Below are positions 1-14,273 of a stretch of 22,116 nt of DNA, piece by piece. The DNA is taken from positions 1 to 22,116 of the forward strand of contig JAZGAD010000057.1 in the NCBI GenBank assembly GCA_036444275.1, written 5' to 3'. A model generated the notes under the pieces. That model made no database searches. It was not told where the DNA came from and saw only the letters and a program-made list of their open reading frames with translations. A program made the position numbers and the translations under genes. This DNA is from Candidatus Hydrothermarchaeales archaeon (GTDB taxonomy: Archaea > Hydrothermarchaeota > Hydrothermarchaeia > Hydrothermarchaeales > JAZGAD01). Position 1 is the first letter of the stretch, and every line of letters starts with the position of its first letter.

Positions 1-1
1 A

Positions 2-808: not shown

Positions 809-925
809 CAACATACACCTCACGCAAAACAATCAAAAAACACCTACTCGCCATACACCACTATTACGGCCATAAAATAAAAAGAAAGTCTGATAATGGC
901 TTCTAGCGCTTAATCCCTAACATGT

Positions 926-958
926 TTCTATTTTTTAACCTGTTTTTTACGTTTTTTT
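926..958 (+). terminator. Oligo-T tracts, probable archaeal terminator
   Basis: Three T6-T7 runs about 120 nt downstream of the DUF835 gene. Confidence 0.4.
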
Positions 959-1186
959 AGTCTATTTTGATATCCATGTAAAGCCTAGTTAAGTTCAATA
1001 AAAAAAGCCAGAGTGATTGTAAATTATGAATAAAACAAGACACGGTGACAATAGAGGTGAAGATTAAACAATGATATTTCAAGGGCGAAGCATCATCGCG
1101 TGGGGGGGATTGGCACTCCCAGTTCTTGAGTCCTTCCAACAATCCCCCCTTAAAGCTTCTCCCAAATGGGGGAGGGGGTCTTCATT

Positions 1187-1936
1187 ATGATGGAAAGGAT
1201 TAAGACCGGTATACCCAAACTCGACGACAAACTAGGCGGAGGAGTGCCAACGGGAAGGACCCTCTGCTACTACATTGAGCCAGGTGCCGCAGGCGAAGTA
1301 TTCGGGATGCAGACCTTGGCAAGTGCTCTCAAGGAAGGGAGAGAAGGTATTTTCGTGAGCACTCACATGGAACCCAACATAGTTAGAGAACAGTTCAAAG
1401 AATATGGTTGGGGCTTTGAGGGATATGGAGATAGGTTCTTTATCCTAGATGCTTACTCGGGTTTAATGGGATTGAAATCCGATGAGGGATACCTAGTGGA
1501 AAACCCAAACGATATCGACAGCATAAACGATACTATTACCCAGGCCATAGAGGACCTCAGCCCAGGCGGCGTGATTTACGCGTCACTCTCACAAATCATG
1601 GACTTCACCGGAGCTGATATCGAAAAATACGTGAGTGAATGGAACAAACGCATCATGCATAAGAACGCCGTGGGAGTCTACAACTTCACAGCCTGGCCCT
1701 ATCCCAAGGAGATCCTCGCGAAGGCAAAGGAAGAGTTCTTCAACTGCGTCGTCCAACTGAGAAGCATAGGAAATGGTGTACCCCTTGGGCAGTACTACGA
1801 GGTAGCGAAGGCCGATTGGTGCGATGCAGTAGGAGAGCATGTCTTGTTCAGAACGATGAAGCCGGGCGGGGTTAAGACATACGAGCCGACGCTCAAGAAG
1901 GAACGTCTCAAGCTTTTGATAAGTGCGATGGTATAA
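1187..1936 (+). CDS. KaiC/RAD55-family RecA-like ATPase with degenerate Walker A
   Basis: N-terminal 'ERIKTGIPKLDDKLGGGVP' signature. The Walker A position reads 'IEPGAAGEVF' with no GKT. GGAGGGG RBS at 1171-1177 favours ATG 1187/1190 over 1166. Confidence 0.85.
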   Translation: MMERIKTGIPKLDDKLGGGVPTGRTLCYYIEPGAAGEVFGMQTLASALKEGREGIFVSTHMEPNIVREQFKEYGWGFEGYGDRFFILDAYSGLMGLKSDEGYLVENPNDIDSINDTITQAIEDLSPGGVIYASLSQIMDFTGADIEKYVSEWNKRIMHKNAVGVYNFTAWPYPKEILAKAKEEFFNCVVQLRSIGNGVPLGQYYEVAKADWCDAVGEHVLFRTMKPGGVKTYEPTLKKERLKLLISAMV

Positions 1937-2102
1937 AAGTGAACTAAGGCTCCCCCCTTAAACCTTCTATCTCAAATCCCTTTCATTTTTTACGTATTCT
2001 TAACATTTCCTTGACTTATCTTGATATTACTGTAAAGACCCATCTAAGGACAAGCAAAGTAGCAAGCTCTGCTTTGTTGAGAAAAAAAAGGAGGAGTGTG
2101 AC

Positions 2103-2375
2103 ATGAGGTGGGAAGCAAGCGCTAAAGAGGAGGAATCCAGCACGGATTTGGGGATAGGCACCACGGACTTTGGTAAGCCCATACCCCCCAAAGCAAGTGC
2201 CCCAATGATAACTCTAGAGGATATCCCAAGCCTCGGAGAAGCAGAACTGACGAGGCTCCAAGGAACTATCAGCGTACAACTGGCCCAGAAGAGAAGAGAA
2301 CTAGATACAATGCTACAGAATATAGACAATCCAACTAGAGAGATACGTGAACAGCGCGAGCGACGGAATAAATAA
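2103..2375 (+). CDS. Hypothetical protein with C-terminal coiled coil
   Basis: 90-aa ORF with a GGAGGAG RBS just upstream and a charged helical C-terminus. Confidence 0.55.
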   Translation: MRWEASAKEEESSTDLGIGTTDFGKPIPPKASAPMITLEDIPSLGEAELTRLQGTISVQLAQKRRELDTMLQNIDNPTREIREQRERRNK

Positions 2376-2619
2376 GAGACACTAAGCCTACGCAAAGAGC
2401 CGGATATCTGAGGGAACTGTGAGCTTATGAAATTAAAACGGGGTATGAAGATCTACAAGGTATTTGAGGCCGTACTTACCCACACCCACCCATCTATCGT
2501 AAGAGGATACGGCTTCATCTCAATAAAGCAAAATGAGGGGGGACGTCCAGTTCACCAAAGCAACTGCTTGTCCCTGTATATTGTATAAAAGAAATTAATG
2601 GCTGAGGAGGTAGTAATAG

Positions 2620-5289
2620 ATGAATCTAAATGTATTTAAGGATATGAAAATAGGCAAGAAACTACTGCTTGGTTTTATGATACTCGCCTTTTTAGTAGCA
2701 GTAACCGGTGCAATCGGCATCACAAGCCTGAACAGCGTGGGAGGCGCTACAGACGTCATCCTAGACGAAAAAGTACCAGTTGCAGACGCAAGTATGGAGG
2801 CGACGATTGCGGTGATCTCAGGCAGAGACGCCATGGGCGAATACCTACTAACTGAAGATCAAAAAGAACTCGCAGAAATCGAAGCAGAATTCAACGAGTA
2901 TGTCGGCGACTTCGACATGTGGCATGACGCAATCCTATATGGCACTGACAGCACCCAGTTCAAGAGTAGCGCCTCTGGTGCGATGTGGATAAAAGACGGA
3001 CTCCAAGGCAATACTATACTCGCTGTGGCAGCAGACTCAGAGATAGCTACGCTGACAAGAGAAGCCGGTGCATACCACGAAAAATACGCCGACGCTGCAC
3101 TAAACCTAATGGAAGCACAGCAACAGCAAATAGAGGCCAAGCCGAAGGCCGGGGCGAAGATGGAAGAAATGGACGCCGCCGGAGTAAAAATGCTGGAAAA
3201 AGCAACCGCGAAGAGCTTCTCCAACAACGACATGAACCTCATCTGGGAACAACTAATGACAGTGAACGACTACCTGATAACAGGGAGTCAAGAAGAGATC
3301 ACTGCATTCCAAGAAACAAAGGTAGAGGTAGAAGCCCTCCCGAACTACGACGCAATCCAGGCGGAACACACGGAAACCGTCAGACTAGGACAAGAAGCCA
3401 TAGGATACTACGAGGATTATCTCAAGTATACAGCGGCAGGGAACGAGGATGCTGCCCTTGAAGCCAACGTGAAGGCGGGGGAGAAGATGGAAGAAATGGA
3501 CGCCACCGGAGTAAAAATGCTGGAAAAAGCAACCGCGAAGAGCTTCTCCAACAACGACATGAACCTCATCTGGGAACAACTAATGACAGTAAACGACTAC
3601 CTAATAACCGGGAGCCAAGAAGAGATCACTGCATTCCAAGAAACAAAGGTAAAAGTAGAAGCCCTCCCGAACTACGACGCAATCCAGACGGAGCACAAGG
3701 AAACCGTCAAACTAGGACAAGAAGCTATTGACTTTCACCAGGAACACCTCGGATATGTGGCGGAAACAAGAGCCCAGATGGAGCTGGTTGACGAGTACAG
3801 CGTTAAAGCAGACGAGACAATGGACAAGGTAGAGTTAGCCGCAGGAGCCGACATGGACGCAGCAATGATAGCCGCAGATTCAGCGCAGTCCACGGCTAAT
3901 AGACTATTGGTCCTAGCAACTGTAGTAGCTATAGCACTAGGTATCGGGATCGGGATCTTCCTTGCCCGAAGTATTACCAAGCCATTACAGGAACTGGTCG
4001 GCATAGCAGGCTTAATCGCCAAGGGAGATCTAACCCACGATATAGAGGAAAAGGCCACGGACGAGATAGGGCAACTCTCCAATGCCTTCAGGAATATGAC
4101 ACTAAACCTGCGCGACATCGTGGGCAAGGTACAGTATACCGCTGCACACGTAAGTGCTACAAGTGAAGAACTAGCTGCTTCCAGTGAGGAGATGAATGCC
4201 ACAACAGAGGAGGTCTCTTCAGCTGTACAGCAGATCTCCAGTGGTGCTCAGAACCAAGCTGCAACTGTAAGGGATGCTGCTAGTACGATGGAAAACCTCT
4301 CAGCCTCAATACAGCAGGTATCGTCTAGTGCAGAGTCAACGTCTGAAGCTGCAGATCAGGCTAGCAAGACCGCCGAGGAAGGTGGAAAGGCAGCTGAAGA
4401 GGCTGTTAAAAAGATGGACGAGATCCGCAGTGTGGTGGCCGAGTCATCTGAGTCAATCAAGACGCTTGGCGAGAGGTCGAAGGAGATCGGTGATATCGTG
4501 GACTTGATTGACAGCATTGCAGAGCAGACCAATCTACTTGCGCTTAACGCTGCTATTGAGGCGGCGAGGGCAGGTGAGCATGGACGAGGTTTTGCTGTCG
4601 TTGCTGAGGAAGTCCGGAAGCTGGCCGAGGAGTCGAAGTCAGCTACAGAGAATATAGCCAACATAATCAACGAAATACGATCAGAGACAGATAAAGGGGT
4701 GCAGTCTATGGAAGCAGTGACCAAGGAAGTCGACGAGGGAACCGAGGTAGTGAATAAGGCTGGAGAGTCCCTTGCACAGATTATGGACATGGTGCAGAAC
4801 GTGACTAATATGGTCACTGAGATATCAGCTGCGACTGAGGAACAGGCAAGCAGCAGCCAGGAAGTGGTGAAGTCCATAACCGATGTAGCCAGCATAGCCG
4901 AAGAGACTGCTAGCGCGGCTGAGGAATCCTCGGCATCCACCGAGGAGCAGACAGCAAGCATGCAGGAGTTGTCTGCCTCAGCACAGGAGCTCGCTGACAT
5001 GGCGACGGAACTACAGGGGACAGTAAGCCAGTTTAAGATACGGAGAGCAGAAGAGCTAGAGCCTGTTATAGAGCGAAAAGCTGCAGGGCCTGTTAGGGTA
5101 GAGAAACCGGCACAAGTACGGGCACGGAAGATCCAGGAACCAGCAACGCTACAGGGCAATGGAGAAGATGAAGAGCAGATAGATGCCCAAGAAGCTACAG
5201 CGCAGGGCAATGGAGAAGATGAAGAGCCAGTGAAGAAAGTGGTCGGGAAAAAAGTCAAAGCAGTAGTTCGGAGGCAGGCAAAAAAGTAG
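2620..5289 (+). CDS. Methyl-accepting chemotaxis protein (TM - helical sensor - TM - HAMP - MA domain)
   Basis: GAGGAGG RBS, two TM helices, HAMP ('ITKPL...GDLT...DEIGQL') and the hairpin tip '[38 protein letters not shown]'. Confidence 0.97.
3145..3729 (+). repeat. Intragenic duplication in the MCP sensor domain (3145-3402 and 3472-3729, period 327 nt)
   Basis: Two 86-aa copies differ at 6 residues; the DNA is near-identical. Confidence 0.95.
5152..5227 (+). repeat. 25-nt perfect direct repeat (QGNGEDEE x2) in the MCP C-terminal tail
   Basis: CAGGGCAATGGAGAAGATGAAGAGC at 5152-5176 and 5203-5227. Confidence 0.9.
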
Positions 5290-5304
5290 GGAGTGGTTGT
5301 CGTA

Positions 5305-5326
5305 TGGGGGGACTCACCTCCCCCCA
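5305..5326 (+). other. GC-rich intergenic stem-loop between MCP and cheW
   Basis: TGGGGGGA-ctcacc-TCCCCCCA, an 8-bp perfect stem. Confidence 0.7.
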
Positions 5327-5360
5327 CACCCACACCAATATTATTTGGAGGTTGTTGTGT

Positions 5361-5861
5361 ATGCATGAAGAAATGTTTGCTACAGATGGTGAGGTCCAGC
5401 TCGTGGTGTTCGATCTTGGCAACGAAGAGTTCGGGGCAGAGATAAGCCAAGTGCGGGAGATTATTAAGATGGCCAAAATTACTAGAATGCCGAGGGCACC
5501 TGAGTTCGTAGATGGGGTGATCAACCTTAGGGGGAAGATCATCACGGTTATAAACCTTAGTAAGAGATTCGACCTGAGCATAGGAGAGCGGGGTGAGGGT
5601 ACGCGCATCGTGGTCATAGAGGTGGGAGACACTACTATGGGCATGGTTGTCGACTCTGTGACCGAGGTCCTGCGCATAGATGCCGCAGACATTGAGCCTC
5701 CATCGTCAGTGATGATGGGTGGTATAGATGCCGCTTATCTGCAGGGCGTAGGTAAACTGGGTGATCGGCTCTTGATCTTGCTGGATCTGGGTAAGATATT
5801 CACAGAGCGAGAACTAACCCAAATCGAGACCGTGACAGAGAAAGGTATGTTAGAAGTCTAA
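5361..5861 (+). CDS. cheW: Chemotaxis coupling protein CheW
   Basis: 'QLVVFDLGNEEFG..VREII...PEFVDGVINLRGKIITVINL...GMVVDSVTEV'. The GGAGG RBS points to ATG 5361 rather than 5304. Confidence 0.95.
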   Translation: MHEEMFATDGEVQLVVFDLGNEEFGAEISQVREIIKMAKITRMPRAPEFVDGVINLRGKIITVINLSKRFDLSIGERGEGTRIVVIEVGDTTMGMVVDSVTEVLRIDAADIEPPSSVMMGGIDAAYLQGVGKLGDRLLILLDLGKIFTERELTQIETVTEKGMLEV

Positions 5862-6272
5862 GAAAAGGCACGAGCATAGCGATAAAGACATGGATAGCAT
5901 CACCGCTATGGCGAGGGTATAGATTGGGTGGCTGTCGTTATTACCCCCTAGAAAGACTTCCACAATGAAAGTAGGAAGGAAGAACTCCGCTTAGCCTTCT
6001 TCTTAGCACAGCCACACGTTTTTCTCCTCGATCCCAAGGACAATGACTCCGGGGTAAATATATCGCATCTATCCAGCTCAGAGGATGAGAGTGGAGAGTT
6101 AGAGGCATGACCAGTGTAATTTTAATCTATCGGAAATTATAATTAAATCTCTCTCTAATTCTGAAACTTTATGCTAAATTAGACTTGAATATTTTTTATC
6201 CAACCGAAGAGATATAAATATTTTAGATATAAGTTTAAGTATAAGTTGAAATGTCCTTAAGGTGACGCGGGG

Positions 6273-6398
6273 GTGAATGTTCTGAGCAGATTGAGCCTGG
6301 GAACCAAGTTCATGTTTATCGTTGGTTTAGTTATAGCAGTGGTTACCTCCTCTATTTTTGTCTGGCAATACAGAGAACGTCTCCCAGATAACAGTTAA
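6273..6398 (+). pseudogene. 41-aa single-TM ORF resembling the truncated N-terminus of a chemoreceptor or sensor
   Basis: AGGTGA RBS (6260-6265) then GTG. The product MNVLSRLSLGTKFMFIVGLVIAVVTSSIFVWQYRERLPDNS resembles MCP/kinase N-termini (compare '[10 protein letters not shown]' in the upstream MCP). Confidence 0.5.
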
Positions 6399-6436
6399 AA
6401 ACGTTATAATAGGAAAAAACACATCAGGGAACTAAC

Positions 6437-8065
6437 ATGAAGAAATTGCTGATACTAGGGATTGTCTTCGTAGTCCTATTTGTCCAGGGTACGTGTGAAG
6501 CCGCCGGCGCAGAAGACTATTCCGGCATGTACTATCTCCACGATGAACTCCCGAGGTTTGGGCAGAACATCGGGAACCTGCACGATGTCGGTGAACTCCG
6601 CAGGTCAAAACCATCCCACCACGATGAGAGGTACTGCTCGAAATGGGTCCAGTTCGATTTCGATGAGCCTGCGCTGAGCGGGGTAAACGCTACCGAGGAG
6701 TTCAATATAACCTCGATTTACTATCACATCTGGTGGAAGACTGTCAGTGGAATCGCCCTCATAGGTTACCAGACCGTTCCCACTTACGACACTACAATGA
6801 AGGATTTTTTTTCCGTGGACTCTAACGGGTCCCGCTCGTACTTGGAAAGCAGTGGGTACTGGCTTACCACTTACAAGCAGGATGCCAACGCAAGTGGGAA
6901 GGATATTCATGATTTCACAATAAAGATCGTCGAAAATGATAACCTCCCCTCGGTAATCTCTGGGCCGGACCACCCATCGTTTATCATCATCAACCCGGAG
7001 GATGACGATGTGCTGAAAAAGACCGACATGGACAACGATACCTTAAGCGATTATGACGAGATGTACGTATATTACACAAACCCCTATGACAAAGATACGG
7101 ATTCTGACGGGCTTTTAGACCCTGAGGAGATAATTGAAGGGAACGACGAGCGGATAACAGACCCGAACAATTTCGACACCGACGACGACGGGCTATTGGA
7201 CGGGGAGGATTCGGACCCGGTAGTAAGCAGGTATAAGAAAGTATACGGTGACTGGATAGTAACTGGGGCAGAAAACGTGTCAGGAGAGTATCTCCAGGTA
7301 GAAGGCAACATCATAGTCCCAGACGGAAGTAGCTTGACCATCACCGACAGCAGTATAAAAATAAACACTCGCAGCGAGCAACACAGGATACTGGTCAAGA
7401 AAGGCGGTACTCTGAATATCTTTAACAGCAAATTAAGGACAGACACTCCAGGGCATTGGTACAGCGCAATGACGAACACAAGTCACTGGCACGGAGAGAC
7501 GAATATCGACATCTTCGGCAAAGCCGTGATAAAAGACAGCACAATAGAATATGGGAGCGAAATCCAATTTGAGAGAGGCAGCGATGTCACGCTGGACAAC
7601 AACGACATACTCTATTACCGATACGGCGTAACAGTCCTTGCCGCCTCCCCGACTATAACAAATAACCGGATAACCCCGTATGTGGGAAACGGCATCCTGT
7701 TATCGCATGCCTCCCCTGTAATAAAAAACAATAATATAACTTCGTATATCGGTTCGGGAATCGTCCTGATAGCTTCGTCTCCAACGATAGTGGGGGGAGT
7801 AATACAAGGCGGCAGCAGCGATTTATATCTGACAGAAGATTCACACCCTGTTTTGGATGGCGTCGCTTTTCATGAAAACAAAAATATAATAATAAAGGAC
7901 GGTCTTTCTTCGGTTGTGTATGCCCAAGAGACTGTCAACACTTCTGAGACCGTCACAGCCCCATCTTCCCCTCCATCAAGTCATTCTCGATTTCCAGCCT
8001 ACACGCCGGCAGTTATCGTTCTGCTGGGAATACTTGCCTTAATCCTAATAAAACGCAAAAGATGA
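6437..8065 (+). CDS. Secreted, C-terminally anchored surface protein with Ca-binding DxDxDG (TSP3-like) repeats and a right-handed parallel beta-helix
   Basis: Signal peptide; repeats 'DMDNDTLSDYDE', 'DTDSDGLLDPEE', 'DTDDDGLLDGED'; beta-helix rungs 'ASPTITNNRI/ASPVIKNNNI'; S/T/P linker, TM helix and KRKR tail. Confidence 0.8.
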   Translation: MKKLLILGIVFVVLFVQGTCEAAGAEDYSGMYYLHDELPRFGQNIGNLHDVGELRRSKPSHHDERYCSKWVQFDFDEPALSGVNATEEFNITSIYYHIWWKTVSGIALIGYQTVPTYDTTMKDFFSVDSNGSRSYLESSGYWLTTYKQDANASGKDIHDFTIKIVENDNLPSVISGPDHPSFIIINPEDDDVLKKTDMDNDTLSDYDEMYVYYTNPYDKDTDSDGLLDPEEIIEGNDERITDPNNFDTDDDGLLDGEDSDPVVSRYKKVYGDWIVTGAENVSGEYLQVEGNIIVPDGSSLTITDSSIKINTRSEQHRILVKKGGTLNIFNSKLRTDTPGHWYSAMTNTSHWHGETNIDIFGKAVIKDSTIEYGSEIQFERGSDVTLDNNDILYYRYGVTVLAASPTITNNRITPYVGNGILLSHASPVIKNNNITSYIGSGIVLIASSPTIVGGVIQGGSSDLYLTEDSHPVLDGVAFHENKNIIIKDGLSSVVYAQETVNTSETVTAPSSPPSSHSRFPAYTPAVIVLLGILALILIKRKR

Positions 8066-8094
8066 TTTAGATTCATCTCTCGCAAGATTAGGGT

Positions 8095-8300
8095 AAAGGC
8101 GGCGAAGGGAGGAGATTCATGTTTACGCTGCCTATCGGATGGGAATAGGAGGCGTAGTAGACCTCCCTCGAAGCTATCCCTTAAATAAGAAGCAGACGAG
8201 GGATATGGCGGAGAGGATCCAGAGGGTATCAGCGAGCACCACATCTGTTGCTGAGATGGTTGAGAATGCCAACAGACTGCCAAAGAGTGCAGTGACTCAG
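8095..8300 (+). pseudogene. Possible degraded chemoreceptor fragment
   Basis: 'DMAERIQRVSASTTSVAEMVENANRL' resembles the MCP methylation helix '[26 protein letters not shown]'. A one-base frameshift would join 'FMFTLPIGW' to 'GIGGVV', a Cache-like GW motif. Confidence 0.35.
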
Positions 8301-8340
8301 GTCTGCTATAGCTGTGAAGAAATTCAAAAAAAACAGACAG

Positions 8341-8592
8341 TCATCTAGTGGCTATTTCTATAAAGAGTACCAAGGATATTATCATTCTAATCTCTATAGG
8401 TATGCCTATCGAGTGCCTTCGTTCAAAGTGATCAGTGAGCCAGTATGCTGAGGCAAGATATATCAAGCTGGCTAGAAGGGTGAATGGATTAAACACCAAT
8501 ACCAATACTAGCGCTATAGTGAAATTTGCTAATATCAAGAAACGTCTAAGAAGTAATGCCCCAAGTTTTCCTACATTCCAATCCCAATTCAT
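8341..8592 (-). CDS. Small multi-pass membrane protein (~83 aa, 2-3 hydrophobic segments)
   Basis: Hydrophobic ORF divergent from the recombinase. Start taken at MNWDW; the frame is open to 8637. Confidence 0.5.
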   Translation of the reverse strand: MNWDWNVGKLGALLLRRFLILANFTIALVLVLVFNPFTLLASLIYLASAYWLTDHFERRHSIGIPIEIRMIISLVLFIEIATR

Positions 8593-8782
8593 TTTCTCTT
8601 GAAGTAAACACATGCTATACAATACGGATATTATCAAAGTATTTACTACAATATTATACTACGTTTAATTATACTAATAAGATAGTTAATTATTACGAAG
8701 TAATAAGTAAGTGTAATACCTATACAAACATCTCTTTGCTTTCGGGCTGGAAAAACCGGTTTATAGGGGGGGCTGATTTGCT

Positions 8783-9844
8783 ATGCTAAAGCCCTTGGAT
8801 GATAGGCCGGCTACCATGGAAGAGGCTTTAGTAGAACTCAGGCTCCTTCGACAGGAAAACGAGTTTCTAAGACAACAGCTAGAAGTCGCTCAGACGTTCC
8901 AAGCTAAGATGGGACTAACACTCAATAAGATCACAATCAATGATCTCTTTGAGAAGAAGCTGTTAGAATGCCGTGCTAGAGAATTAGCAAGAACCAGTAT
9001 TTACAGCTATATTATAGGGAAATATTACTTCCTAATATTCTGCAAAAAGTACGGGCTAGAATATGCAGACGAAGTAACACAGGATCATACTCTTGAGTTT
9101 TGGGAATGGTTGAAAGTAACACCCGGAATCAAGGGGTATATACTCAGCAACTATTCAAGAATTCATATGCAGAAATCAATAAAGGCGACCTTCCAGTATG
9201 CGGAGGAACGGAACAGCATCATAAGGAATCCCTTTAAGAACCGTGTACTACCCCATAGCCCGATTAATGACTGGTGGACAGATGAATACTACGAAGAGCT
9301 TATACAGGCTATTAGGACGCATGTAAGGCCATTCTATCAGCATAGGTACGAGACGATAGTAAGATGCCTATATACCACAGGATTAAGAGTAGGTCTTTTC
9401 CTCGGTGCAAAGCATAGCGGAGTAAGAATCACAGAGGACGGACGGGTCTATATTACTACGAAGCGGAAAGTGCCTAAGAGTTCAGCTATCCAGGAATTTA
9501 CATGTGAACTGTTTAATGAGAAGGCTAAAGAGATGTACCGGGAATACTATCGGGAAGGAGCCGAGGGATACGTCCTAATAAACAACAAGACAACACCAAA
9601 AGGAGCATACGACAGTTTTATGACAACACTAAAAAGAGCCTGCAAGAAAGCAGGAATACCCTTTAAGACTCCGCATAAGGCTAAGCATGGGTTCATTACT
9701 AAGATGTTGCTCAATGGATATACTGCGGAACAGATCTGCAAAATGACAGGCAATCTTACGCCGAGCTTGATAAACAAGGTTTATAACCACATACAGGCTT
9801 CAGACTTTCGGGAGCAAGTTAAAGCAGACATAGCAGACATCTAG
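8783..9844 (+). CDS. Tyrosine recombinase/integrase family protein
   Basis: SAM-like core ('RTSIYSY', 'IIRNPF'), box I 'LYTTGLRVG', box II 'TPHKAKHGFITKML...MTGN...VYNH', and an N-terminal coiled coil. Confidence 0.9.
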   Translation: MLKPLDDRPATMEEALVELRLLRQENEFLRQQLEVAQTFQAKMGLTLNKITINDLFEKKLLECRARELARTSIYSYIIGKYYFLIFCKKYGLEYADEVTQDHTLEFWEWLKVTPGIKGYILSNYSRIHMQKSIKATFQYAEERNSIIRNPFKNRVLPHSPINDWWTDEYYEELIQAIRTHVRPFYQHRYETIVRCLYTTGLRVGLFLGAKHSGVRITEDGRVYITTKRKVPKSSAIQEFTCELFNEKAKEMYREYYREGAEGYVLINNKTTPKGAYDSFMTTLKRACKKAGIPFKTPHKAKHGFITKMLLNGYTAEQICKMTGNLTPSLINKVYNHIQASDFREQVKADIADI

Positions 9845-10220
9845 AGAGGCTATGTTATTTATGAAGTTTCTTGTTTATCCATCCTACTAGGTAATTTATT
9901 TATCTATTGTCTTTATTGTGAGTTTGTAAAACCTCCTTTGGTTTTACCTTGCTAGGTGGATGTTCTGATACTTCTTTGAGGAATTTAAAAACTGGCTTAT
10001 TGTTTCTGGTGGGGTTTTTTAAATTTCGTTACTGGGAGAGTAGGTGTAACTATTTCTGAGTTTAGGGATTAAAACCCTTTTTAAAGGGGTTTATCTGGCA
10101 AGAGTTTGAGAAAGGAGCGGATCAGCGGGTTCTCAGCGGGAGTTTGAGGGCTGGCCTTCAAGGTATACTCGTTTTAGATGCTGCAAAATTTTTTATGGTG
10201 ATGAAAGTAGAATAGGAAGC

Positions 10221-10823
10221 GTGGATAAAAAAGAATTTTTAGAGTTTTTAAAAAAGGCGGATAAAGTCTCGGATAAGGAATTTGAAGAATATGTAAAAAG
10301 GAGTGATCAAGAATTTGAAGAATTCTTAAAAAAGAATAAGCTAACAGCTAGAGAATATCTTTCTAAGGTGCTTAAAGCCGATGAACGGGAACGTAAAAAA
10401 AGAGACCTTAAAGACTATATTATTACCGTGAAGATACACCCACAGGGTAAAATTGTCTTGGGTAAGAGTTTTTTAAGAGCTCATGGTTTGGAAGAAGGAG
10501 ACGAAATAATCATCTTTATCCAGGATGTTATTGAAAAAAGCAAAATTATTAAATTGATAGGGCATCTCTATAATCGGGAACTAAAGAAAATTGAATCTTA
10601 TAAAAAGGAACGTAAAAAAAGAGATCTCAAGGACTTTGTTATTAAAGCAAAAATATATCGGCCTGGTAGAATTACCTTGGGTAAGAGTTTTTTAAGAGCT
10701 CATGGTTTGGAAGAAGGAGACGAAATAACTATGTTTATCCAAGATGTAATGGAATACACCGGAGTTATTAAAGGGCTAGACTATTTACTCAGTCGCGAAC
10801 TCGGAGAAGAACCACTCTTATAA
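10221..10823 (+). CDS. Protein with two tandem AbrB/SpoVT-like (swapped-hairpin) DNA-binding domains
   Basis: 'VKIHPQGKIVLGKSFLRAHGLEEGDEI' and 'AKIYRPGRITLGKSFLRAHGLEEGDEI'; GTG start. Confidence 0.75.
   Translation: MDKKEFLEFLKKADKVSDKEFEEYVKRSDQEFEEFLKKNKLTAREYLSKVLKADERERKKRDLKDYIITVKIHPQGKIVLGKSFLRAHGLEEGDEIIIFIQDVIEKSKIIKLIGHLYNRELKKIESYKKERKKRDLKDFVIKAKIYRPGRITLGKSFLRAHGLEEGDEITMFIQDVMEYTGVIKGLDYLLSRELGEEPLL
10389..10748 (+). repeat. Intragenic duplication of the AbrB unit (period 219 nt)
   Basis: 53-nt perfect identity at 10457-10509 and 10676-10728. Confidence 0.92.
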
Positions 10824-10850
10824 TATTGGGGGGATGGGGGGTAATGGGGT

Positions 10851-10863
10851 AAATACTTATATA
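10851..10863 (+). promoter_or_regulatory. Archaeal TATA box for a leaderless transcript starting at the small ORF/rep operon
   Basis: TTATATA at 10857-10863 begins 29 nt before ATG 10886. Confidence 0.55.
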
Positions 10864-10885
10864 GTCTCCCGTCTGAATATACTCT

Positions 10886-11011
10886 ATGAGCGATGATCTA
10901 GAAAACGAACTAATGGGTCATTTCGTAGTAGGCTCGATTTTTACATTTGTTTTCATTCTAACCTTCATTCGAGCGTGGAAAAAGAATAAACTTGCTGAGG
11001 GAGGCGGATAG
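10886..11011 (+). CDS. Unannotated 41-aa single-TM peptide (acidic N-terminus, hydrophobic core, basic C-terminus)
   Basis: MSDDLENELMGHFVVGSIFTFVFILTFIRAWKKNKLAEGGG. It has a TATA box at leaderless spacing and its TAG abuts the rep GTG. Confidence 0.65.
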   Translation: MSDDLENELMGHFVVGSIFTFVFILTFIRAWKKNKLAEGGG

Positions 11012-12067
11012 GTGATTGCTGAAGTGTCGCCTATGACTCGTATTCCTCAGGCTCACGGCGACCGCTACAGCGATTCTAGTTGGAAGGACCAGCGTAAGCT
11101 TGTTTTTGGCGTGAGCCGTGAGGAGATCGCCAGGGAGCTAGAGAACAGCGGCCAATTTAGTCATGCTTCTAGGCTTTTGGGCTGTGGGAGCAGGTATCAC
11201 CTCTGCCAGTGCGAAGGCTGTGATGAAATCGTGCTCAGTGGTAGTCGTTGCGAGAGCCGGGTTTGTTTTGAGTGCGGCGAGAAAAAACTAATCCGGCTGA
11301 TAGCTAAAGAGAAAGATTTTTTGAAAGGATTGCCTACTGATCCTCGGGGTAAGCATAGGGCAACTATTTTGACGTTGACGTTGAAGAACGTTCCTGACAA
11401 GAATTATGGTAAACACGTCTACAAGGAGTTCTTGCAATTTATTAGGCGGTTTTTTACTCATCCTGAGATAAAAGGCCGTATCCGTGGAGGCATCCGTAGT
11501 ATTGAGACCAAGCGTCCAAAAGAGGGATATGTCTACCATAAAAAAGACGGCTCGACTTATGTTGTTCCTCCAGGCCGGGGTTGGAATATTCATATGCACA
11601 GCTTGATTGACGCTGACTATATACCAATTCGAAAAATAAGCCGAGTTTGGCGTGAGATATCAGGCTCATATATCGTGGACGCTAGAGCAGTAAAAGCGGG
11701 CATTCCTGCCCTTATTGAAATTTTGAAGTATACGATTAAGCCCCCGAATCTCGGCGATGCCAAGAGCTACGCCCGATACTTATCGGTCACGAAGGGGCTT
11801 AGGCTCTTTAATACGTTCGGGAACTGGAGAGAAGACCATTTCGGAGTCTTTGTGAGGGGGGATAAGCGATGCTCGGTTTGTAGGTCACGGATGGCTTATC
11901 TCTTCTCGGTTCCAGCGAAGGAGGGTCTCCGCTGGAGAGAATATTTGAAGGGGCCTCCTAAAGATATTTTTGGGGGCTATATACACTTCTTGGGACCGCC
12001 TCACACCTTGCAGCTCGTCAAAGACCATGGTACGGGTCATATAGGCCAAATTGTTGTGGAGGCTTGA
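11012..12067 (+). CDS. rep: HUH rolling-circle replication initiator (pC194/pUB110 Rep_1-like) with Zn-binding Cys motifs
   Basis: Motif I 'LTLTLKN', motif II 'NIHMH', motif III 'EILKYTIK'. N-terminal 'CEGC...CESRVCFEC', then 'KGLRLFNTFG' and C-terminal 'CSVC'. Confidence 0.88.
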   Translation: MIAEVSPMTRIPQAHGDRYSDSSWKDQRKLVFGVSREEIARELENSGQFSHASRLLGCGSRYHLCQCEGCDEIVLSGSRCESRVCFECGEKKLIRLIAKEKDFLKGLPTDPRGKHRATILTLTLKNVPDKNYGKHVYKEFLQFIRRFFTHPEIKGRIRGGIRSIETKRPKEGYVYHKKDGSTYVVPPGRGWNIHMHSLIDADYIPIRKISRVWREISGSYIVDARAVKAGIPALIEILKYTIKPPNLGDAKSYARYLSVTKGLRLFNTFGNWREDHFGVFVRGDKRCSVCRSRMAYLFSVPAKEGLRWREYLKGPPKDIFGGYIHFLGPPHTLQLVKDHGTGHIGQIVVEA

Positions 12068-12369
12068 TGATTATGCGGGAATTGACGGAAGAAGAGATAG
12101 GGTTTGTGAGGGATCGTCTTTATTTCGTCTGTGCGAGCTGTAATAATGAAGTCGGTAACGCCGAAGTAGTGGTTCCTTTTGAGAATATCGATTTTCTTGC
12201 TAATGAGGGTGGGGATAGAGATATAGAAGAACTAGACAAGGACCAGTACAAGGCCTATGGGGCAGTTATTATCGGTATCATCGGCGATGAAGGAGAGGAC
12301 TTGCATTTTCTCTATAAGGGGAAGTGCCCTCGTTGCGGCTCTTTTAATATTACTTTTAGATTTGTCTAA
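12067..12369 (+). CDS. Zinc-ribbon hypothetical protein
   Basis: CASC ... CPRC pairs. The start overlaps the rep stop (TGATG); ATG 12073 is an alternative. Confidence 0.7.
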   Translation: MIMRELTEEEIGFVRDRLYFVCASCNNEVGNAEVVVPFENIDFLANEGGDRDIEELDKDQYKAYGAVIIGIIGDEGEDLHFLYKGKCPRCGSFNITFRFV

Positions 12370-12390
12370 GGAGAAGGAGGACTGATCAGG

Positions 12391-12693
12391 ATGGAAGAAG
12401 ATATAGGGAAGTCTCCGGTTACAGGACTAGAAGAGCTTTTGAATAAGGATTTTCTGGACTTTTTTAAGGCATTAGAGCGTATGGACGGCGTAGGCACAGA
12501 AGAAAGAATCGCTAGGATAATATATTGTGAACTTACACCCTTGCTTGAAGCTCTCGATGAGGCTTGTGCTCCTATATTTAGCGATTCTTTTAAAAACTGG
12601 ACGGATACGCTTTTTGCGCACGGTGAAGAAAATAAAAAAACTAAAGAATATTCTAAGTATGTCTTTAAAGTAGAGGGAACGAAGAGTAAATAG
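12391..12693 (+). CDS. Hypothetical protein
   Basis: 100-aa ORF with a GGAGGA RBS, co-oriented with rep. Confidence 0.65.
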   Translation: MEEDIGKSPVTGLEELLNKDFLDFFKALERMDGVGTEERIARIIYCELTPLLEALDEACAPIFSDSFKNWTDTLFAHGEENKKTKEYSKYVFKVEGTKSK

Positions 12694-12812
12694 AGGGAAT
12701 AAAGAAGCTAATAGGATGGTAGTATAGCAATGGAAGCTCTAGGCGTAAACGGAGGAGGTAGCGAGCTCGTGAATGCTGCTGGCTATGGTCTGGTGTATCC
12801 GGATTGGACGGC

Positions 12813-12894
12813 GGCCCGCCGCAGGCGGGCCAACGGACAACCTGCTAGCATTTATGGCTGTTTACAACTTGCTGGCATTCCTAGCTGTTTACTT
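12813..12894. other. GC-rich hairpin followed by a 27-bp imperfect tandem repeat (candidate replication origin or terminus)
   Basis: GGCCCGCC-gca-GGCGGGCC at 12813-12831. Repeat copies at 12841-12867 and 12868-12894 share GCTGTTTAC. Confidence 0.5.
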
Positions 12895-12911
12895 GAAGTT
12901 AAATGATTAAG

Positions 12912-13169
12912 TTACTTATGCTCTATTTCAATCTCAAGCATCTTTCTTATCTCTGCGATCAGCCGAGGATTTAAGGATACTTCTAGACCATAAGAAGTCG
13001 GCTTAGGGAGGATATAACCTTCTCTTATTAAAGCCTTCAAAGCTTTTTTGATGTCTCCTCTAGCATGCTTTGGAAAGCCTTTAGGCACATTGCTCTCTGA
13101 GGTATGTCTCCCTCCTACATATCTAAGTTTGTAGAGTTTCTCAAGGATCGCTTTCTTATATACCTCCAT
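12912..13169 (-). CDS. Small basic archaeal protein, probable winged-helix fold
   Basis: 'KLYKLRYVGGRHT...KGFPKH..G..KKALKALIREGYILPKPTSYG..VSLNP' recalls a recurrent archaeal hypothetical family (recognised from memory). Confidence 0.7.
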   Translation of the reverse strand: MEVYKKAILEKLYKLRYVGGRHTSESNVPKGFPKHARGDIKKALKALIREGYILPKPTSYGLEVSLNPRLIAEIRKMLEIEIEHK

Positions 13170-13299
13170 CTAAACAAGGTCTGATAAGGCGCTATTTAAA
13201 GTTTGCTATATCTGCCTAATTAGTATAATAATCATACTTGATGGTAAAATTTATATACTATATAGAAAACAATCTACTATTCAAGTAGGTGATATTAAG

Positions 13300-13656
13300 A
13301 TGGAAATCTTCCAAGAGAATCCGTTACAGGCTATATTTGGATCCCACCCACAAGTGAAGATAATAGAAACCCTACTTCTTCATTCAGACTTTGAGTATAA
13401 CCTCACCGAGTTGGCGGAGAGCGCTGAAGTATCAAAGGCTAGCGTCTTCGAGTTAAAGGAGAGGCTTTTGCATTATGGAATTCTTAAACCTACAAAAAAA
13501 GTGGGGCGAATTCAGCTATATCGATTCAACAAAGAGAGCCCCGTAGGAAAACTGCTCAATACTCTGTCCTTCAAATTAGCCGACATAGACATAGAAATGC
13601 TACTAGAGGACAAGCTAATACAAGAGGGAGAAAAGGGAGAAGCAGCTCTTGCATAA
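13300..13656 (+). CDS. Winged helix-turn-helix transcriptional regulator
   Basis: 'FGSHPQVKII...EYNLTELAESAEVSKASV...GRIQLYRFN'. AGGTGA RBS and TTTATATA box upstream. Confidence 0.85.
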   Translation: MEIFQENPLQAIFGSHPQVKIIETLLLHSDFEYNLTELAESAEVSKASVFELKERLLHYGILKPTKKVGRIQLYRFNKESPVGKLLNTLSFKLADIDIEMLLEDKLIQEGEKGEAALA

Positions 13657-13699
13657 CTCTCGATTTTAACATTAGATCCCGTAAAATGTTCCTTACTGC

Positions 13700-13723
13700 T
13701 ATAGTAACCTTTGGTTATTAAAA
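13700..13723. promoter_or_regulatory. Phr/HSR1-type heat-shock operator upstream of grpE
   Basis: TATAGTAAC-CTTTG-GTTATTAAAA contains the TAAC-N5-GTTA palindrome. Confidence 0.65.
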
Positions 13724-13757
13724 TATTTTATCTCGTTAGAAGGCTCACTGAGGTATA

Positions 13758-14273
13758 ATGGCGAGTACGAAGGGGAAAAGAGCAAGTAAGGACACATCAG
13801 CTAGAGCAGACACAAAAGACGAGCTCAAAAAGGCTGTAGAAGAGAAAGATAACCTGGCAGAGGAATACCTAACTAAACTTAAATATCTCCAGGCAGAGTT
13901 CGACAACTATCGCAAGAGCGTGACAAAAGAGAAGGAAACTCTCGTCAGATATGCCAGTGAAAACCTCCTCCTTGAGCTTCTCGACATCTATGAAAATCTA
14001 GAGCGGACGCTGGAGAACGGAAAAAATGATAAGAAATCCCTCCTACAAGGTGTGAAGATGACCCAGAAAGAGTTCAAGCGCTTATTAGACAAAGAAGGAG
14101 TTACCATTATAAAGGCAGTTGGCGAGAAATTCGATCCATTTAAACATGAAGCGTTAATGCTGGATAATAACACAAAATTGGAAGATAACACTATAGTAGA
14201 GGAGTATCGGAGGGGCTACATGTTGAGGGATAAGGTACTCCGTTATTCTAAAGTTAAAGTTGCAAAGAGGTGA
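13758..14273 (+). CDS. grpE: Nucleotide exchange factor GrpE
   Basis: '[10 protein letters not shown]', '[11 protein letters not shown]', '[11 protein letters not shown]'. Confidence 0.96.

What the first reader, a model, noticed from the sequence alone, without database searches (positions are those of the whole stretch)
8341..12906. Compact integrated archaeal rolling-circle element: tyrosine recombinase + HUH Rep + coat-like peptide, no packaging ATPase
Seen: within ~4.5 kb lie a small membrane protein, a tyrosine recombinase, a hairpin-rich spacer, a double-AbrB protein, a 41-aa TM peptide, a Zn-binding HUH Rep, two small ORFs and a hairpin plus repeat, with no tRNA nearby. Known: Rep_1-type initiators generate ssDNA circles, and recombinase+HUH pairings occur in ssDNA proviruses and some IS91-like elements. 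Inference: this is an undescribed minimal plasmid, satellite or provirus. With no Zot/pI ATPase and no pleolipovirus spike gene, it would need a helper virus or be a remnant.
Basis: partly seen in the sequence, partly recalled or inferred. Interest (0 to 1): 0.85.

Follow-up and report, generated by a model that had tools for sequence, protein, structure and literature searches.

The report
Small mobile integrated rolling-circle plasmid
A 4.3-kb self-integrating mini-plasmid sits in the chromosome of an uncultivated deep-sea archaeon, with exact ends, an empty site in a related population and a second insertion site, so it is a live mobile element and not a viral remnant.

Summary
It is bounded by a direct repeat, CTTGAAG. 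The joined ends would form a 19-nt near-perfect palindrome, as expected for a tyrosine-recombinase core site.

Three lines of evidence show mobility:
- A contig in another public run skips exactly 8598-12891, giving an empty site.
- The same MAG holds a second right-end junction inside an XPB helicase gene, plus an uninterrupted allele of that gene.
- A related 11-kb element shares the integrase (44% identity), the Rep (52%) and the same core, and splits an OGG gene that is intact in a reference genome.

Rep has a Rep_1 (pC194/pUB110-type) HUH core with an IS91-like zinc domain. The integrase is a divergent subfamily in which Arg-II is Lys and His-III is Asn.

The 98-aa membrane ORF belongs to the host, not the element. 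The "coat-like" reading of the 41-aa peptide is untested, and the spacer is not unusually structured. The host is an archaeon of the order Hydrothermarchaeales.

Best reading: an active integrative rolling-circle plasmid. This is a known kind of element in a new variant.

The parts
8598..8604 (.). attL core CTTGAAG (host | CTTGAAG | TAAACA of the element)
   Evidence: Direct repeat of the attR core. The same 11-mer, CTTGAAGTAAA, sits at the left junction of L024, L025 and L026. The empty-site contig breaks at 8597.
8783..9844 (+). Tyrosine integrase, 353 aa, of a divergent subfamily
   Evidence: Pfam Phage_integrase 3.5e-12; PHROG 1 integrase 6.6e-24; aligned to XerA 5hxy. In a 17-sequence family alignment R202, K229, K301 (the Arg-II position), N324 (the His-III position) and Y334 are invariant. 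It is 44% identical to the L026 integrase.
9845..10220 (.). Largest non-coding spacer, with one perfect 8-bp hairpin (9926-9947) and an inverted copy of the core (10156-10162)
   Evidence: Sequence. The DNA fold is not better than shuffles, z -0.75. Core copy found. Function unknown; a promoter, operator or single-strand origin is only inferred.
10221..10823 (+). Tandem double SpoVT/AbrB-domain protein, 200 aa, a likely transcription regulator
   Evidence: Pfam MazE_antitoxin 8.2e-8 with 2 stretches, and AbrB-like 6.6e-6. Internal 211-nt duplication at 76% identity. No toxin gene lies beside it.
10886..11011 (+). 41-aa ORF with one hydrophobic segment, ending 1 nt before the Rep start; it may not be a real gene
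   Evidence: ORF list. No family hit. No homologue in L024, L026 or L039.
11012..12067 (+). Rolling-circle initiator: N-terminal Cys4 zinc domain, Rep_1-type HUH core and a C-terminal Cys pair
   Evidence: Pfam Rep_1 above the gathering score, and Zn_Tnp_IS91 3.4e-5; 16 of 17 family members hit both. H194, H196, K239 and Y240 are invariant. AF2 model has pLDDT 82. HUH nucleases are among the top VIA rows at Z 4.8-6.7. 117 BFVD hits; the named ones are microvirus initiators and HRPV-1 protein 1.
12064..12369 (+). 101-aa protein with two CxxC pairs (zinc ribbon); its start overlaps the Rep stop
   Evidence: ORF list and sequence. Only weak zinc-ribbon Pfam hits, best E 0.0024.
12391..12693 (+). 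100-aa protein of unknown function, preceded by GGAGG
   Evidence: ORF list and sequence. No family hit.
12813..12831 (+). GC hairpin GGCCCGCC-GCA-GGCGGGCC, a candidate part of the replication origin
   Evidence: Sequence. 17 of 18 nt match a hairpin about 200 nt downstream of the Rep gene of G020 (L039/L003), the only other locus where the hairpin pattern matched. The stretch folds at z -2.39. The origin role is inferred.
12837..12890 (+). Two 27-nt tandem repeats, each ending in GCTGTTTAC; the second one runs into the att arm
   Evidence: the repeat finder family D4, 81% identity. A TGTTTAC motif also lies about 24 nt after the L039 hairpin.
12892..12898 (.). attR core CTTGAAG (TGTTTA of the element | CTTGAAG | host)
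   Evidence: Direct repeat of attL. The same TTTACTTGAAG sits at the right junction of L026. The empty-site contig resumes at 12892. A second junction with another host flank is at G000:C47:1-68.
8341..8589 (-). Host-side 82-aa hydrophobic ORF next to attL; not part of the element
   Evidence: It lies outside the att core. The X1 empty-site contig covers 8340-8597 with 5 differences in 258 nt. No homologue in 40 relatives, so it may not be a gene.
12912..13656 (.). Host genes to the right: an 85-aa gene (minus strand) and a 118-aa wHTH gene (plus strand), a divergent pair
   Evidence: The 85-aa gene has homologues in 7 of 40 relatives at E <= 0.01. The same divergent pairing is seen in G025 and G005.

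Best explanation
Window 8598-12898 is one copy of a 4,294-bp integrative rolling-circle plasmid, a 'cryptic integrated element', in an archaeon of the order Hydrothermarchaeales.

Shown:
- It is a discrete insertion bounded by a 7-bp direct repeat, CTTGAAG.
- The host site exists unoccupied elsewhere.
- The same element end is joined to a second chromosomal site in the same MAG.
- A related element with a homologous integrase and Rep uses the same core.

Inferred mechanism:
- The element's tyrosine recombinase binds the inverted arms TGTTTAC / GTAAACA around the core on the circular form. It exchanges strands within CTTGAAG with chromosomal sites that share little more than that core. It can therefore land in intergenic DNA or inside genes.
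- After excision, the Rep_1-type HUH protein nicks an origin and drives rolling-circle replication of the circle. The origin most likely lies in the hairpin, repeat and palindrome block at the joined ends.
- The double-AbrB protein most likely regulates transcription of the ring. All six ORFs point the same way.
- The element carries no virion or transfer genes, so it persists by integration and plasmid replication. Any cell-to-cell spread would have to be passive or helped.
For: 1. Ends. CTTGAAG lies at 8598-8604 and at 12892-12898. The flanking 11-mers are mirror images, so the joined ends give a 19-nt palindrome with one central mismatch.

2. Empty site. In run X1, one 339-nt contig (depth 14.6) matches 8340-8597 with 5 differences. 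It then continues at 12892, skipping 4294 nt. Six letters are shared across the joint, and 37 nt fit on the right.

3. Second insertion.
- G000:C47:1-68 is 100% identical to window 12831-12898.
- It then runs into an XPB/Rad25 helicase ORF: ResIII 3.8e-32, ERCC3_RAD25_C 1.2e-15.
- The end of contig C44 holds an uninterrupted allele carrying the XPB_DRD domain (2.6e-16). It is 98% identical at the protein level, and the site there reads CTGAAG.

4. Related element.
- L024, L025 and L026 carry an integrase (44% identity) and a Rep (52-54%) with the same core at both junctions.
- L026 splits an OGG gene. G019, whose flanking protein is 99% identical, has that gene intact with ...GGCAAG CTTGAAG CCTTTCC....

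5. Not a host gene set.
- The integrase was found in 1 of 38 genomes of the phylum at E <= 1e-8.
- Rep was found in 3 of 38, one of them a weak fragment.
- Rep is single-copy in G000.

6. Rep looks catalytically complete.
- Rep_1 scores above Pfam's gathering score.
- The HUH histidines and K239-Y240 are invariant in 17 of 17 sequences. E236 is invariant in 10 of 10.
- Fold matches to HUH nucleases.

7. The integrase is under selection. R202, K229, K301, N324 and Y334 are invariant in 17 of 17 sequences.

8. A hairpin conserved with G020 lies downstream of Rep.
Against: - No circular (attP) junction was seen. The assembly has no contig with the joined ends, and the one laid run showed no back-joint.
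- The empty-site contig is short. After 37 nt on the right it diverges from the window (44 unlike letters from 12928). It comes from a related strain, not the same one, and it was laid at a likeness threshold of 85.
- No left junction for the XPB insertion was found. C44 and C47 differ by about 5% in nucleotides, so the two insertions may be in different strains rather than in one cell.
- The integrase lacks two canonical catalytic residues: Arg-II is Lys and His-III is Asn. Its activity is inferred only from the junctions.
- The origin is not identified. The hairpin match to L039 is 17 of 18 nt with E 0.36 in a small database, and L024/L026 lack that exact hairpin.
- No RNA run holds the stretch, so expression is unknown.
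Confidence: 0.72

Rival explanations
1. Satellite or hitch-hiker of a virus. The element is a plasmid that relies on a larger relative for packaging and spread. That relative would be like the 11-kb L026 element, which carries the same type of integrase, Rep and att core plus membrane proteins and a P-loop NTPase. (From recall, this is how satellite plasmids of the spindle-shaped Sulfolobus viruses behave.) This reading is compatible with the best explanation rather than exclusive of it.
For: - The Int-Rep module and the att core are shared with L026.
- L026 carries five predicted membrane or secreted proteins and a Walker-A protein between Rep and attR. One of them hits phrog_5952 at 1.2e-5.
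- The host of L026 is in the same order as the window's host.
- The window element has no structural genes.
- The 41-aa ORF has an acidic N-terminus, a hydrophobic middle and a basic C-terminus.
Against: - No homologue of the L026 secreted protein was found in G000, and the L026 NTPase gave only one marginal hit (E 0.029). G000 is 81% complete.
- The L026 proteins have no match in deposited phage and archaeal-virus genomes. They have no Pfam family, so L026 itself is not shown to be a virus.
- Only Int and Rep are shared between the two elements.
Confidence: 0.18
2. Decayed remnant of a larger provirus that lost its structural module and is now fixed in the chromosome.
For: - The relatives L025 and L026 are about 11 kb and have extra genes.
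- The G020 Rep is followed by a 977-aa ORF.
- The element has mixed composition: GC 0.35-0.42 for 8501-11000 and 0.48-0.49 for 11001-12000.
Against: - Both att sites are intact and the joined-end palindrome is near perfect.
- All six ORFs are open.
- There is a second insertion with an identical 68-nt end and an empty site.
- The integrase points the opposite way relative to Rep compared with L026, and no accessory gene is shared. It is therefore not a simple deletion derivative.
Confidence: 0.06
3. IS91-like rolling-circle transposon. On this reading the Rep, not the integrase, inserts the element next to a CTTG target.
For: - Rep has an IS91-type zinc domain: Pfam E 3.4e-5 and NCBIfam transpos_IS91 E 0.0079.
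- The core begins with CTTG. From recall, not from any call, CTTG is an IS91 target tetranucleotide and part of the pC194 nick site.
- The element has more than one insertion site.
Against: - A 7-bp direct repeat flanks the element, and the joined ends form an inverted-repeat core site typical of tyrosine recombinases.
- No Y2_Tnp catalytic domain was reported for any of the 17 family members.
- The NCBIfam IS91 score is 15.3 against a cut-off of 125.
- An integrase of matching phylogeny travels with Rep and with the same core in L026.
Confidence: 0.04

Closest known systems
Archaeal cryptic integrated elements / integrative plasmids with a tyrosine integrase and a rolling-circle Rep (e.g. the thaumarchaeal element NitAQ6f-E2; PMC6563490, passages read)
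   Same: A small integrated element with an integrase, a rolling-circle initiator and a few small DNA-binding or unknown proteins, and no virion genes.
   Different: - The host phylum here is Hydrothermarchaeota.
- Rep here is Rep_1-type by Pfam. The thaumarchaeal one is described as SNJ1/IS91-like, and I could not compare the sequences.
- The target is a 7-bp core in intergenic DNA or inside genes, not a tRNA gene.
- The integrase has Lys at Arg-II and Asn at His-III.
Rep_1 (PF01446) initiators of pC194/pUB110-type rolling-circle plasmids
   Same: - Pfam score above the gathering cut-off.
- HUH motif, and a Glu four residues before the Lys-Tyr of motif III.
- Weak tblastn matches to Rep genes of 2.2-2.6 kb bacterial plasmids.
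   Different: - There is an extra N-terminal Cys4 zinc domain of the IS91 type and a C-terminal Cys pair.
- The host is an archaeon.
- The Rep is linked to an integrase.
- No solved structure of close kin was found.
Marine pleomorphic viruses ('Thalassapleoviridae') of Geoglobus and alphapleolipoviruses (PMC10919331, passages read)
   Same: - Proviruses that combine a tyrosine integrase with an HUH rolling-circle endonuclease in hydrothermal archaea.
- The fold search lists HRPV-1 protein 1 among the matches (rank 33).
   Different: - The window element has no VP4-like spike, membrane-protein or NTPase genes.
- There is no sequence match to deposited viruses.
- Those proviruses use tRNA-linked att sites of 27 nt. 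This element uses a 7-bp core.
SNJ2 / Rep-Arvir replicons (PMC13107129, abstract and passages read)
   Same: The layout is similar: the rep operon is followed by a conserved hairpin next to a palindrome. There the replication unit is only complete after excision and circularisation.
   Different: Rep-Arvir is not an HUH protein (it is Rep_trans-like, DUF7845). The window's Rep had no such Pfam hit. The origin function here is only an analogy.
IS91-family transposases
   Same: An N-terminal zinc-binding domain (16 of 17 family members at E <= 0.01).
   Different: There is no Y2_Tnp catalytic domain. The element is flanked by direct repeats. It carries an integrase. Rep is single-copy in the assembly.

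Membership tests
Integrated mobile element (site-specific) | Direct repeats (att) at both ends | tested here: met
   CTTGAAG lies at 8598-8604 and 12892-12898, with mirror-image arms.
Integrated mobile element (site-specific) | Unoccupied target site in a related genome or population | tested here: met
   An X1 contig skips exactly 4294 nt, from 8597 to 12892. The evidence is short: 37 nt on the right side, from one contig in one run.
Integrated mobile element (site-specific) | More than one insertion site, or an excised circle | tested here: inconclusive
   A second right junction lies in an XPB gene (C47), with an intact allele on C44. No left junction and no circular junction were found.
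Tyrosine recombinase (Phage_integrase, PF00589) | Pfam gathering score | tested here: met
   46.9 bits against a cut-off of 27.1.
Tyrosine recombinase (Phage_integrase, PF00589) | Nucleophilic Tyr, Arg-I and the beta-hairpin Lys | tested here: met
   Y334, R202 and K229 are invariant in 17 of 17 sequences. Their positions come from the alignment to XerA 5hxy.
Tyrosine recombinase (Phage_integrase, PF00589) | Arg-II (HxxR) and His/Trp-III | tested here: not met
   The motif H-K-A-K-H has Lys301 where XerA has Arg. G-N-L has Asn324 where XerA has His. Both are invariant in 17 of 17 sequences. This is a divergent subfamily, not a decayed copy.
Rep_1 (PF01446) HUH rolling-circle initiators | Pfam gathering score | tested here: met
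   41.1 bits against a cut-off of 33.2. 16 of 17 family members hit Rep_1.
Rep_1 (PF01446) HUH rolling-circle initiators | HUH metal motif and catalytic Tyr | tested here: met
   H194-M-H196 and K239-Y240 are invariant in 17 of 17 sequences. E236 is invariant in 10 of 10.
Rep_1 (PF01446) HUH rolling-circle initiators | HUH nuclease fold | tested here: inconclusive
   VIA Z is 4.8-6.7 to many HUH nucleases over residues 110-280, but Z under 8 is common background. BFVD gave 117 hits at E <= 1e-3, including named initiators. Foldseek against pdb found nothing at E <= 1e-3.
Rep_1 (PF01446) HUH rolling-circle initiators | Nicking at a double-strand origin; ssDNA intermediates | not testable with these tools
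   This needs biochemistry or Southern blots.
IS91-family transposon | Y2_Tnp catalytic domain; no target duplication | tested here: not met
   No Y2_Tnp hit in 17 members. NCBIfam IS91 scores 15.3 against a cut-off of 125. A 7-bp direct repeat is present.
Pleolipoviridae / Thalassapleoviridae provirus | VP4-like spike, membrane protein and NTPase module | tested here: not met
   No such genes lie within 8598-12898. No ORF there is longer than 353 aa, and there are no Pfam or PHROG hits of that kind.
Inovirus-like filamentous provirus | Zot/pI assembly ATPase and a major coat protein | tested here: not met
   There is no ATPase gene. The 41-aa ORF has no family hit.
Rep-Arvir (DUF7845) replicons | DUF7845 / Rep_trans-like initiator | tested here: not met
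   The Pfam scan of all ten ORFs reported no DUF7845 hit.
pGT5/pTP1 plasmid Rep family | Sequence similarity to Rep75-type proteins | not tested
   No reference sequence was on hand. The plasmid collection gave only two weak bacterial hits.

The most novel reading that the evidence does not exclude
The element is a minimal 'replicative tyrosine-recombinase transposon'.
- Its atypical integrase (Lys at Arg-II, Asn at His-III) needs little more than the 7-bp core CTTGAAG. It therefore hops among many chromosomal sites, including DNA-repair genes (XPB here, OGG for its larger relative).
- The hairpin, the TGTTTAC repeats and the att palindrome would form a complete Rep origin only when the ends are joined. 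Excision would then switch on rolling-circle amplification, and integration would switch it off.
- The 4.3-kb circle may also ride in particles of the related 11-kb element.
Probability: 0.15. Interest if true: 0.75.

Novelty: new variant of a known kind. Interest (0 to 1): 0.55.

Why it matters
- It gives a precisely bounded, apparently active, very small replicon-plus-integrase cassette for Hydrothermarchaeota. This uncultivated phylum has almost no described mobile elements.
- It defines an integrase subfamily with two non-canonical active-site residues that still leaves clean junctions. It also defines a 7-bp target core that lies outside tRNA genes.
- It links a plasmid-sized element and an 11-kb virus-like element through one shared Int-Rep-att module. 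That is a direct case of module exchange between archaeal plasmids and putative viruses.
- The cassette (Int, attP, Rep, origin) is the kind of part from which shuttle or integration vectors are built.

Tried and rejected
- **Empty site in reference relatives.** The nearest genomes are too distant (GrpE at most 60% identical). The 82-aa left-flank ORF has no homologue in 40 relatives. Synteny beyond the 85-aa/wHTH gene pair is not kept. The empty site therefore came from a sequencing run instead.
- **Viral collections.**
  - Rep as a single protein and as an alignment, and the integrase as an alignment, found no relative in IMG/VR.
  - Rep had no tblastn match in deposited phages.
  - The integrase had only four distant bacterial-phage matches at 23-25% identity.
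- **GTDB contig scan.** The scan found nothing with the single Rep. With alignment A5 it found only the G020 contig.
- **Solved structures by sequence.** There is no relative of Rep.
- **Rfam.** No match at E <= 0.1 in 8000-13800.
- **Promoter/terminator scan.** It uses bacterial consensus sequences and did not exceed shuffles, so it is not informative for an archaeon.
- **pC194-type nick motif CTTGATA.** There are 7 copies in the window against 3.4 expected, and 5 of 100 shuffles reach that number. None lies in a telling place, so I dropped it.
- **Leader ORF fused to Rep by read-through.** The 41-aa ORF and Rep share a frame and are separated by one TAG. However, the upstream ORFs in L024/L026 are unrelated, and there Rep has its own GGAGGTG followed by CTG. 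I rejected this as coincidence.
- **Whether L026 is a pleolipovirus.** This could not be settled. Its putative secreted protein has only 3 homologues, there are no phage matches, and the Atlas would not take the sequences. I ran no further search on a 3-row alignment.
- **Sequencing runs.** One run was listed, with a small share of words (0.05). No RNA holder was listed. The parts of the element without cover in X1 say nothing.
- **Helper genes in G000.** There was no match to the L026 secreted protein, and only a marginal one (E 0.029) to its NTPase. The genome is 81% complete, so this is not evidence of absence.
- **Literature.**
  - Search of pleolipovirus + rolling-circle + integrase + provirus: 9 papers.
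  - Search of Hydrothermarchaeota + virus: 51 papers, of which 12 were listed.
  - Search of SNJ1/IS91/rolling-circle/archaeal plasmids: 14 papers.
  - I read abstracts and matching passages only, and none described this element.
  - Supplementary tables were closed. Those of PMC13573593 (archaeal proviruses, which include a few from Hydrothermarchaeota), PMC10919331 and PMC13107129 could list related elements.

Full report
**What is in the window**

The window is a whole contig, G000:C57, of a 1.49-Mb MAG that has 61 contigs and is 81% complete.

- The left flank is cellular. It holds DUF835, a KaiC-like ATPase, an MCP, CheW and a beta-helix surface protein.
- The right flank holds an 85-aa gene and a 118-aa wHTH gene. 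They are followed by grpE (protein used as the query), two large ORFs that I read as dnaK and dnaJ from their translations without a family scan, and a Cpn60/TCP-1 thermosome-type chaperonin.
- One relative, G020, is labelled 'same order' by the tool. It is the contig that one search returns with the record title 'Candidatus Hydrothermarchaeaceae archaeon'. The host therefore belongs to the order Hydrothermarchaeales.

**Checking the observation**

- The integrase scores above Pfam's cut-off.
- Rep scores above the Rep_1 cut-off and has an IS91-type zinc domain.
- The 200-aa protein has two SpoVT/AbrB domains made by a 211-nt duplication.
- There is no tRNA in the window.
- The GC hairpin (12813-12831) and the 27-nt tandem repeat (12837-12890) are real. 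That stretch folds better than 199 of 200 shuffles.
- The Int-AbrB spacer does not fold better than chance, z -0.75.

**Finding the ends**

The repeat finder reported an inverted pair at 8593-8610 and 12886-12903. Read in the sequence, this pair is as follows:

- a direct repeat, CTTGAAG, at 8598-8604 and 12892-12898;
- the arm TAAACA just inside the left copy;
- the arm TGTTTA just inside the right copy.

Joining the ends would give a 19-nt palindrome with one central mismatch. This is the usual design of a tyrosine-recombinase core site: inverted binding arms around a 6-8 bp overlap. That statement is general knowledge of the family. The element is 4,294 bp long.

**Independent tests of the ends**

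1. Related element with the same core.
   - A scan of public metagenome contigs with a Rep alignment returned three loci: L024, L025 and L026. All three also encode a homologue of the integrase.
   - The L026 integrase is 44% identical and its Rep 52% identical.
   - The three records have similar names and may come from one campaign. L025 and L026 are near-identical in layout, so they are not three independent observations.
   - The same 11-mers stand at their junctions.
   - In L026 the roughly 11-kb element splits an OGG-type glycosylase gene.
   - G019, whose flanking protein is 99% identical to L026's, has that gene intact. The left and right host flanks abut on a single CTTGAAG.
2. Empty site in another run.
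   - One public run (X1, kept as contigs) holds a 339-nt contig at depth 14.6.
   - It matches 8340-8597 with 5 differences and then continues at 12892, skipping exactly 4294 nt. Six letters are shared across the joint.
   - This is the empty site I had predicted before laying the run.
   - Its weakness is length. Only 37 nt fit on the right before the contig departs from the window, and the run was laid at a likeness threshold of 85.
   - Low-depth contigs (2-3x) about 90% identical to parts of the element are also in X1.
3. Second insertion in the same MAG.
   - A DNA search of the phylum's genomes with the element found that G000:C47 begins with 68 nt identical to 12831-12898.
   - After CTTGAAG it continues into an XPB/Rad25 helicase ORF.
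   - Contig C44 ends with an uninterrupted allele of that helicase. It is 98% identical at the protein level and about 95% at the nucleotide level. It includes the XPB damage-recognition domain, and the site there reads CTGAAG.
   - The same element end is therefore joined to two different host sites in the sampled population. I found no matching left junction.

- The 98-aa 'membrane protein' runs across attL on the minus strand. Its first 13 codons are element DNA and the rest is host DNA.
- An internal ATG gives an 82-aa host ORF. It has no homologue in 40 relatives and may not be a gene.
- The 85-aa/wHTH pair to the right recurs as a divergent pair in G025 and G005, so it is cellular.
- The 58-aa ORF over the hairpin is probably not a gene. 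What is conserved with G020 is the DNA hairpin (17 of 18 nt), not a protein.

**The proteins**

*Rep*
- A family alignment of 17 sequences keeps the N-terminal cysteines, H194 and H196 (HUH), K239-Y240 and a C-terminal Cys pair. E236 is invariant among the ten closest.
- 16 of 17 members hit both Rep_1 and Zn_Tnp_IS91. None was reported with the IS91 catalytic domain.
- HMMER against 1.84 billion representatives found 1,711 proteins at E <= 1e-3, but only 6 at E <= 1e-30. The broad family is large and the close kin are few.
- The closest homologues sit on contigs of 1.7-10.8 kb.
- An AlphaFold model has pLDDT 82 and pTM 0.77. In the viral library it matches 117 viral proteins at E <= 1e-3. The named ones are microvirus replication initiators and HRPV-1 protein 1.
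- The wide PDB search lists many HUH nucleases at Z 4.8-6.7 over residues 110-280. Z values in this range are not decisive on their own.

*Integrase*
- Aligned to XerA and across 17 family members, it keeps Arg-I, the Lys and the Tyr.
- It has an invariant Lys in place of Arg-II and an invariant Asn in place of His-III.
- It was found in no other genome of the phylum (1 of 38), so it is not the host's Xer recombinase.

**Mechanism**

*Shown*
- A discrete insertion with defined ends.
- An unoccupied site.
- A second junction.
- A relative that uses the same core.

*Inferred*
- The integrase carries out integration and excision at CTTGAAG with relaxed choice of flanks. The three known targets share little beyond the core. 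The core occurs 9 times in this 22-kb window alone, against 3.9 expected.
- The excised circle replicates by the rolling-circle mode from an origin in the block of hairpin, TGTTTAC repeats and palindrome that lies after the Rep operon.
- The AbrB protein controls transcription.

All six ORFs point the same way, as is common in rolling-circle plasmids. The layout of rep operon, hairpin and palindrome resembles the origin described for SNJ2. There, excision completes the replication unit (PMC13107129, abstract and passages). That Rep is of a different, non-HUH family, so this is an analogy only.

**Rival readings**

- *Remnant of a larger provirus.* This is unlikely. The ends and ORFs are intact, and the end sequence is identical at two sites. 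The integrase is inverted relative to L026, and no accessory gene is shared.
- *Rep-driven IS91-like insertion.* This is unlikely because of the 7-bp duplication and the recombinase-type core.
- *Dependence on a helper.* This is open. The L026 element has membrane proteins and a Walker-A protein, but I could not show that it is a virus.

**Comparison with the known**

- Integrated archaeal elements that pair an integrase with a rolling-circle endonuclease are in print. Examples are a thaumarchaeal cryptic element (PMC6563490) and the Geoglobus pleomorphic proviruses (PMC10919331).
- What differs here:
  - the host phylum;
  - the very small size;
  - the Rep_1 core with an IS91-type zinc domain;
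  - the altered integrase active site;
  - the short non-tRNA core with insertions inside genes.
- I therefore rate it a new variant of a known kind, of moderate interest.

**Limits**

- One run and one contig support the window's empty site.
- No circular form was seen.
- Nothing is known about expression.

Noticed in passing
L026:6869-18054 (also L025; L024 is a cut variant): A roughly 11.1-kb element in a Hydrothermarchaeales genome of genus g3 splits an OGG glycosylase gene at CTTGAAG. It carries an integrase, a wHTH protein, Rep, five predicted membrane or secreted proteins (one with a long Lys/Arg/His-rich tail) and a Walker-A protein. The gene is intact in G019. It may be an undescribed virus of this phylum.
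   Followed up: partly
L026:9986-11023 and L024:2562-3605: The Rep ORFs of these loci have no ATG, GTG or TTG start. A strong GGAGGTG/GGGGGTG lies 6 nt before a CTG codon, which suggests a CTG start.
   Followed up: partly
G000:C47:1-1286 and G000:C44:25365-26018: Two contigs of the MAG carry alleles of one XPB helicase gene that are about 95% identical in nucleotides. One is interrupted by the element and the other is intact. The bin therefore mixes at least two strains.
   Followed up: partly
G000:C47 (XPB) and L026/L045 (OGG): Both protein-coding targets seen for this integrase family are DNA-repair genes. This may be chance, as there are only two cases.
   Followed up: no
L039:1040-3973: In G020 the Rep gene and the conserved hairpin are followed by a 977-aa ORF with a Cys-rich stretch. 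It had no Pfam hit when scanned from the internal Met at 1187.
   Followed up: partly
window 12912-13656: A divergent pair, an 85-aa gene and a 118-aa wHTH gene, recurs in other Hydrothermarchaeales (G025, G005). In this window it lies directly upstream of grpE and the two ORFs read as dnaK and dnaJ. It may be a heat-shock regulator pair.
   Followed up: partly
window 10231-10337: The N-terminus of the double-AbrB protein holds three copies of a roughly 11-residue repeat (K/D-E-F-x-E-F/Y-L/V-K-K). They are encoded by 26-33-nt direct repeats.
   Followed up: no
window 1-8065: The left flank encodes DUF835, a KaiC-like ATPase, an 889-aa MCP, CheW and a 542-aa secreted beta-helix protein with a C-terminal anchor. 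This is a chemotaxis and surface gene neighbourhood.
   Followed up: no
window 8000-13500 in run X1: Low-depth contigs (2-3x) about 90% identical to parts of the integrase, the 101-aa and 100-aa genes and the hairpin region occur in the same run that holds the empty site at depth 14.6. A diverged variant of the element seems to circulate there.
   Followed up: no
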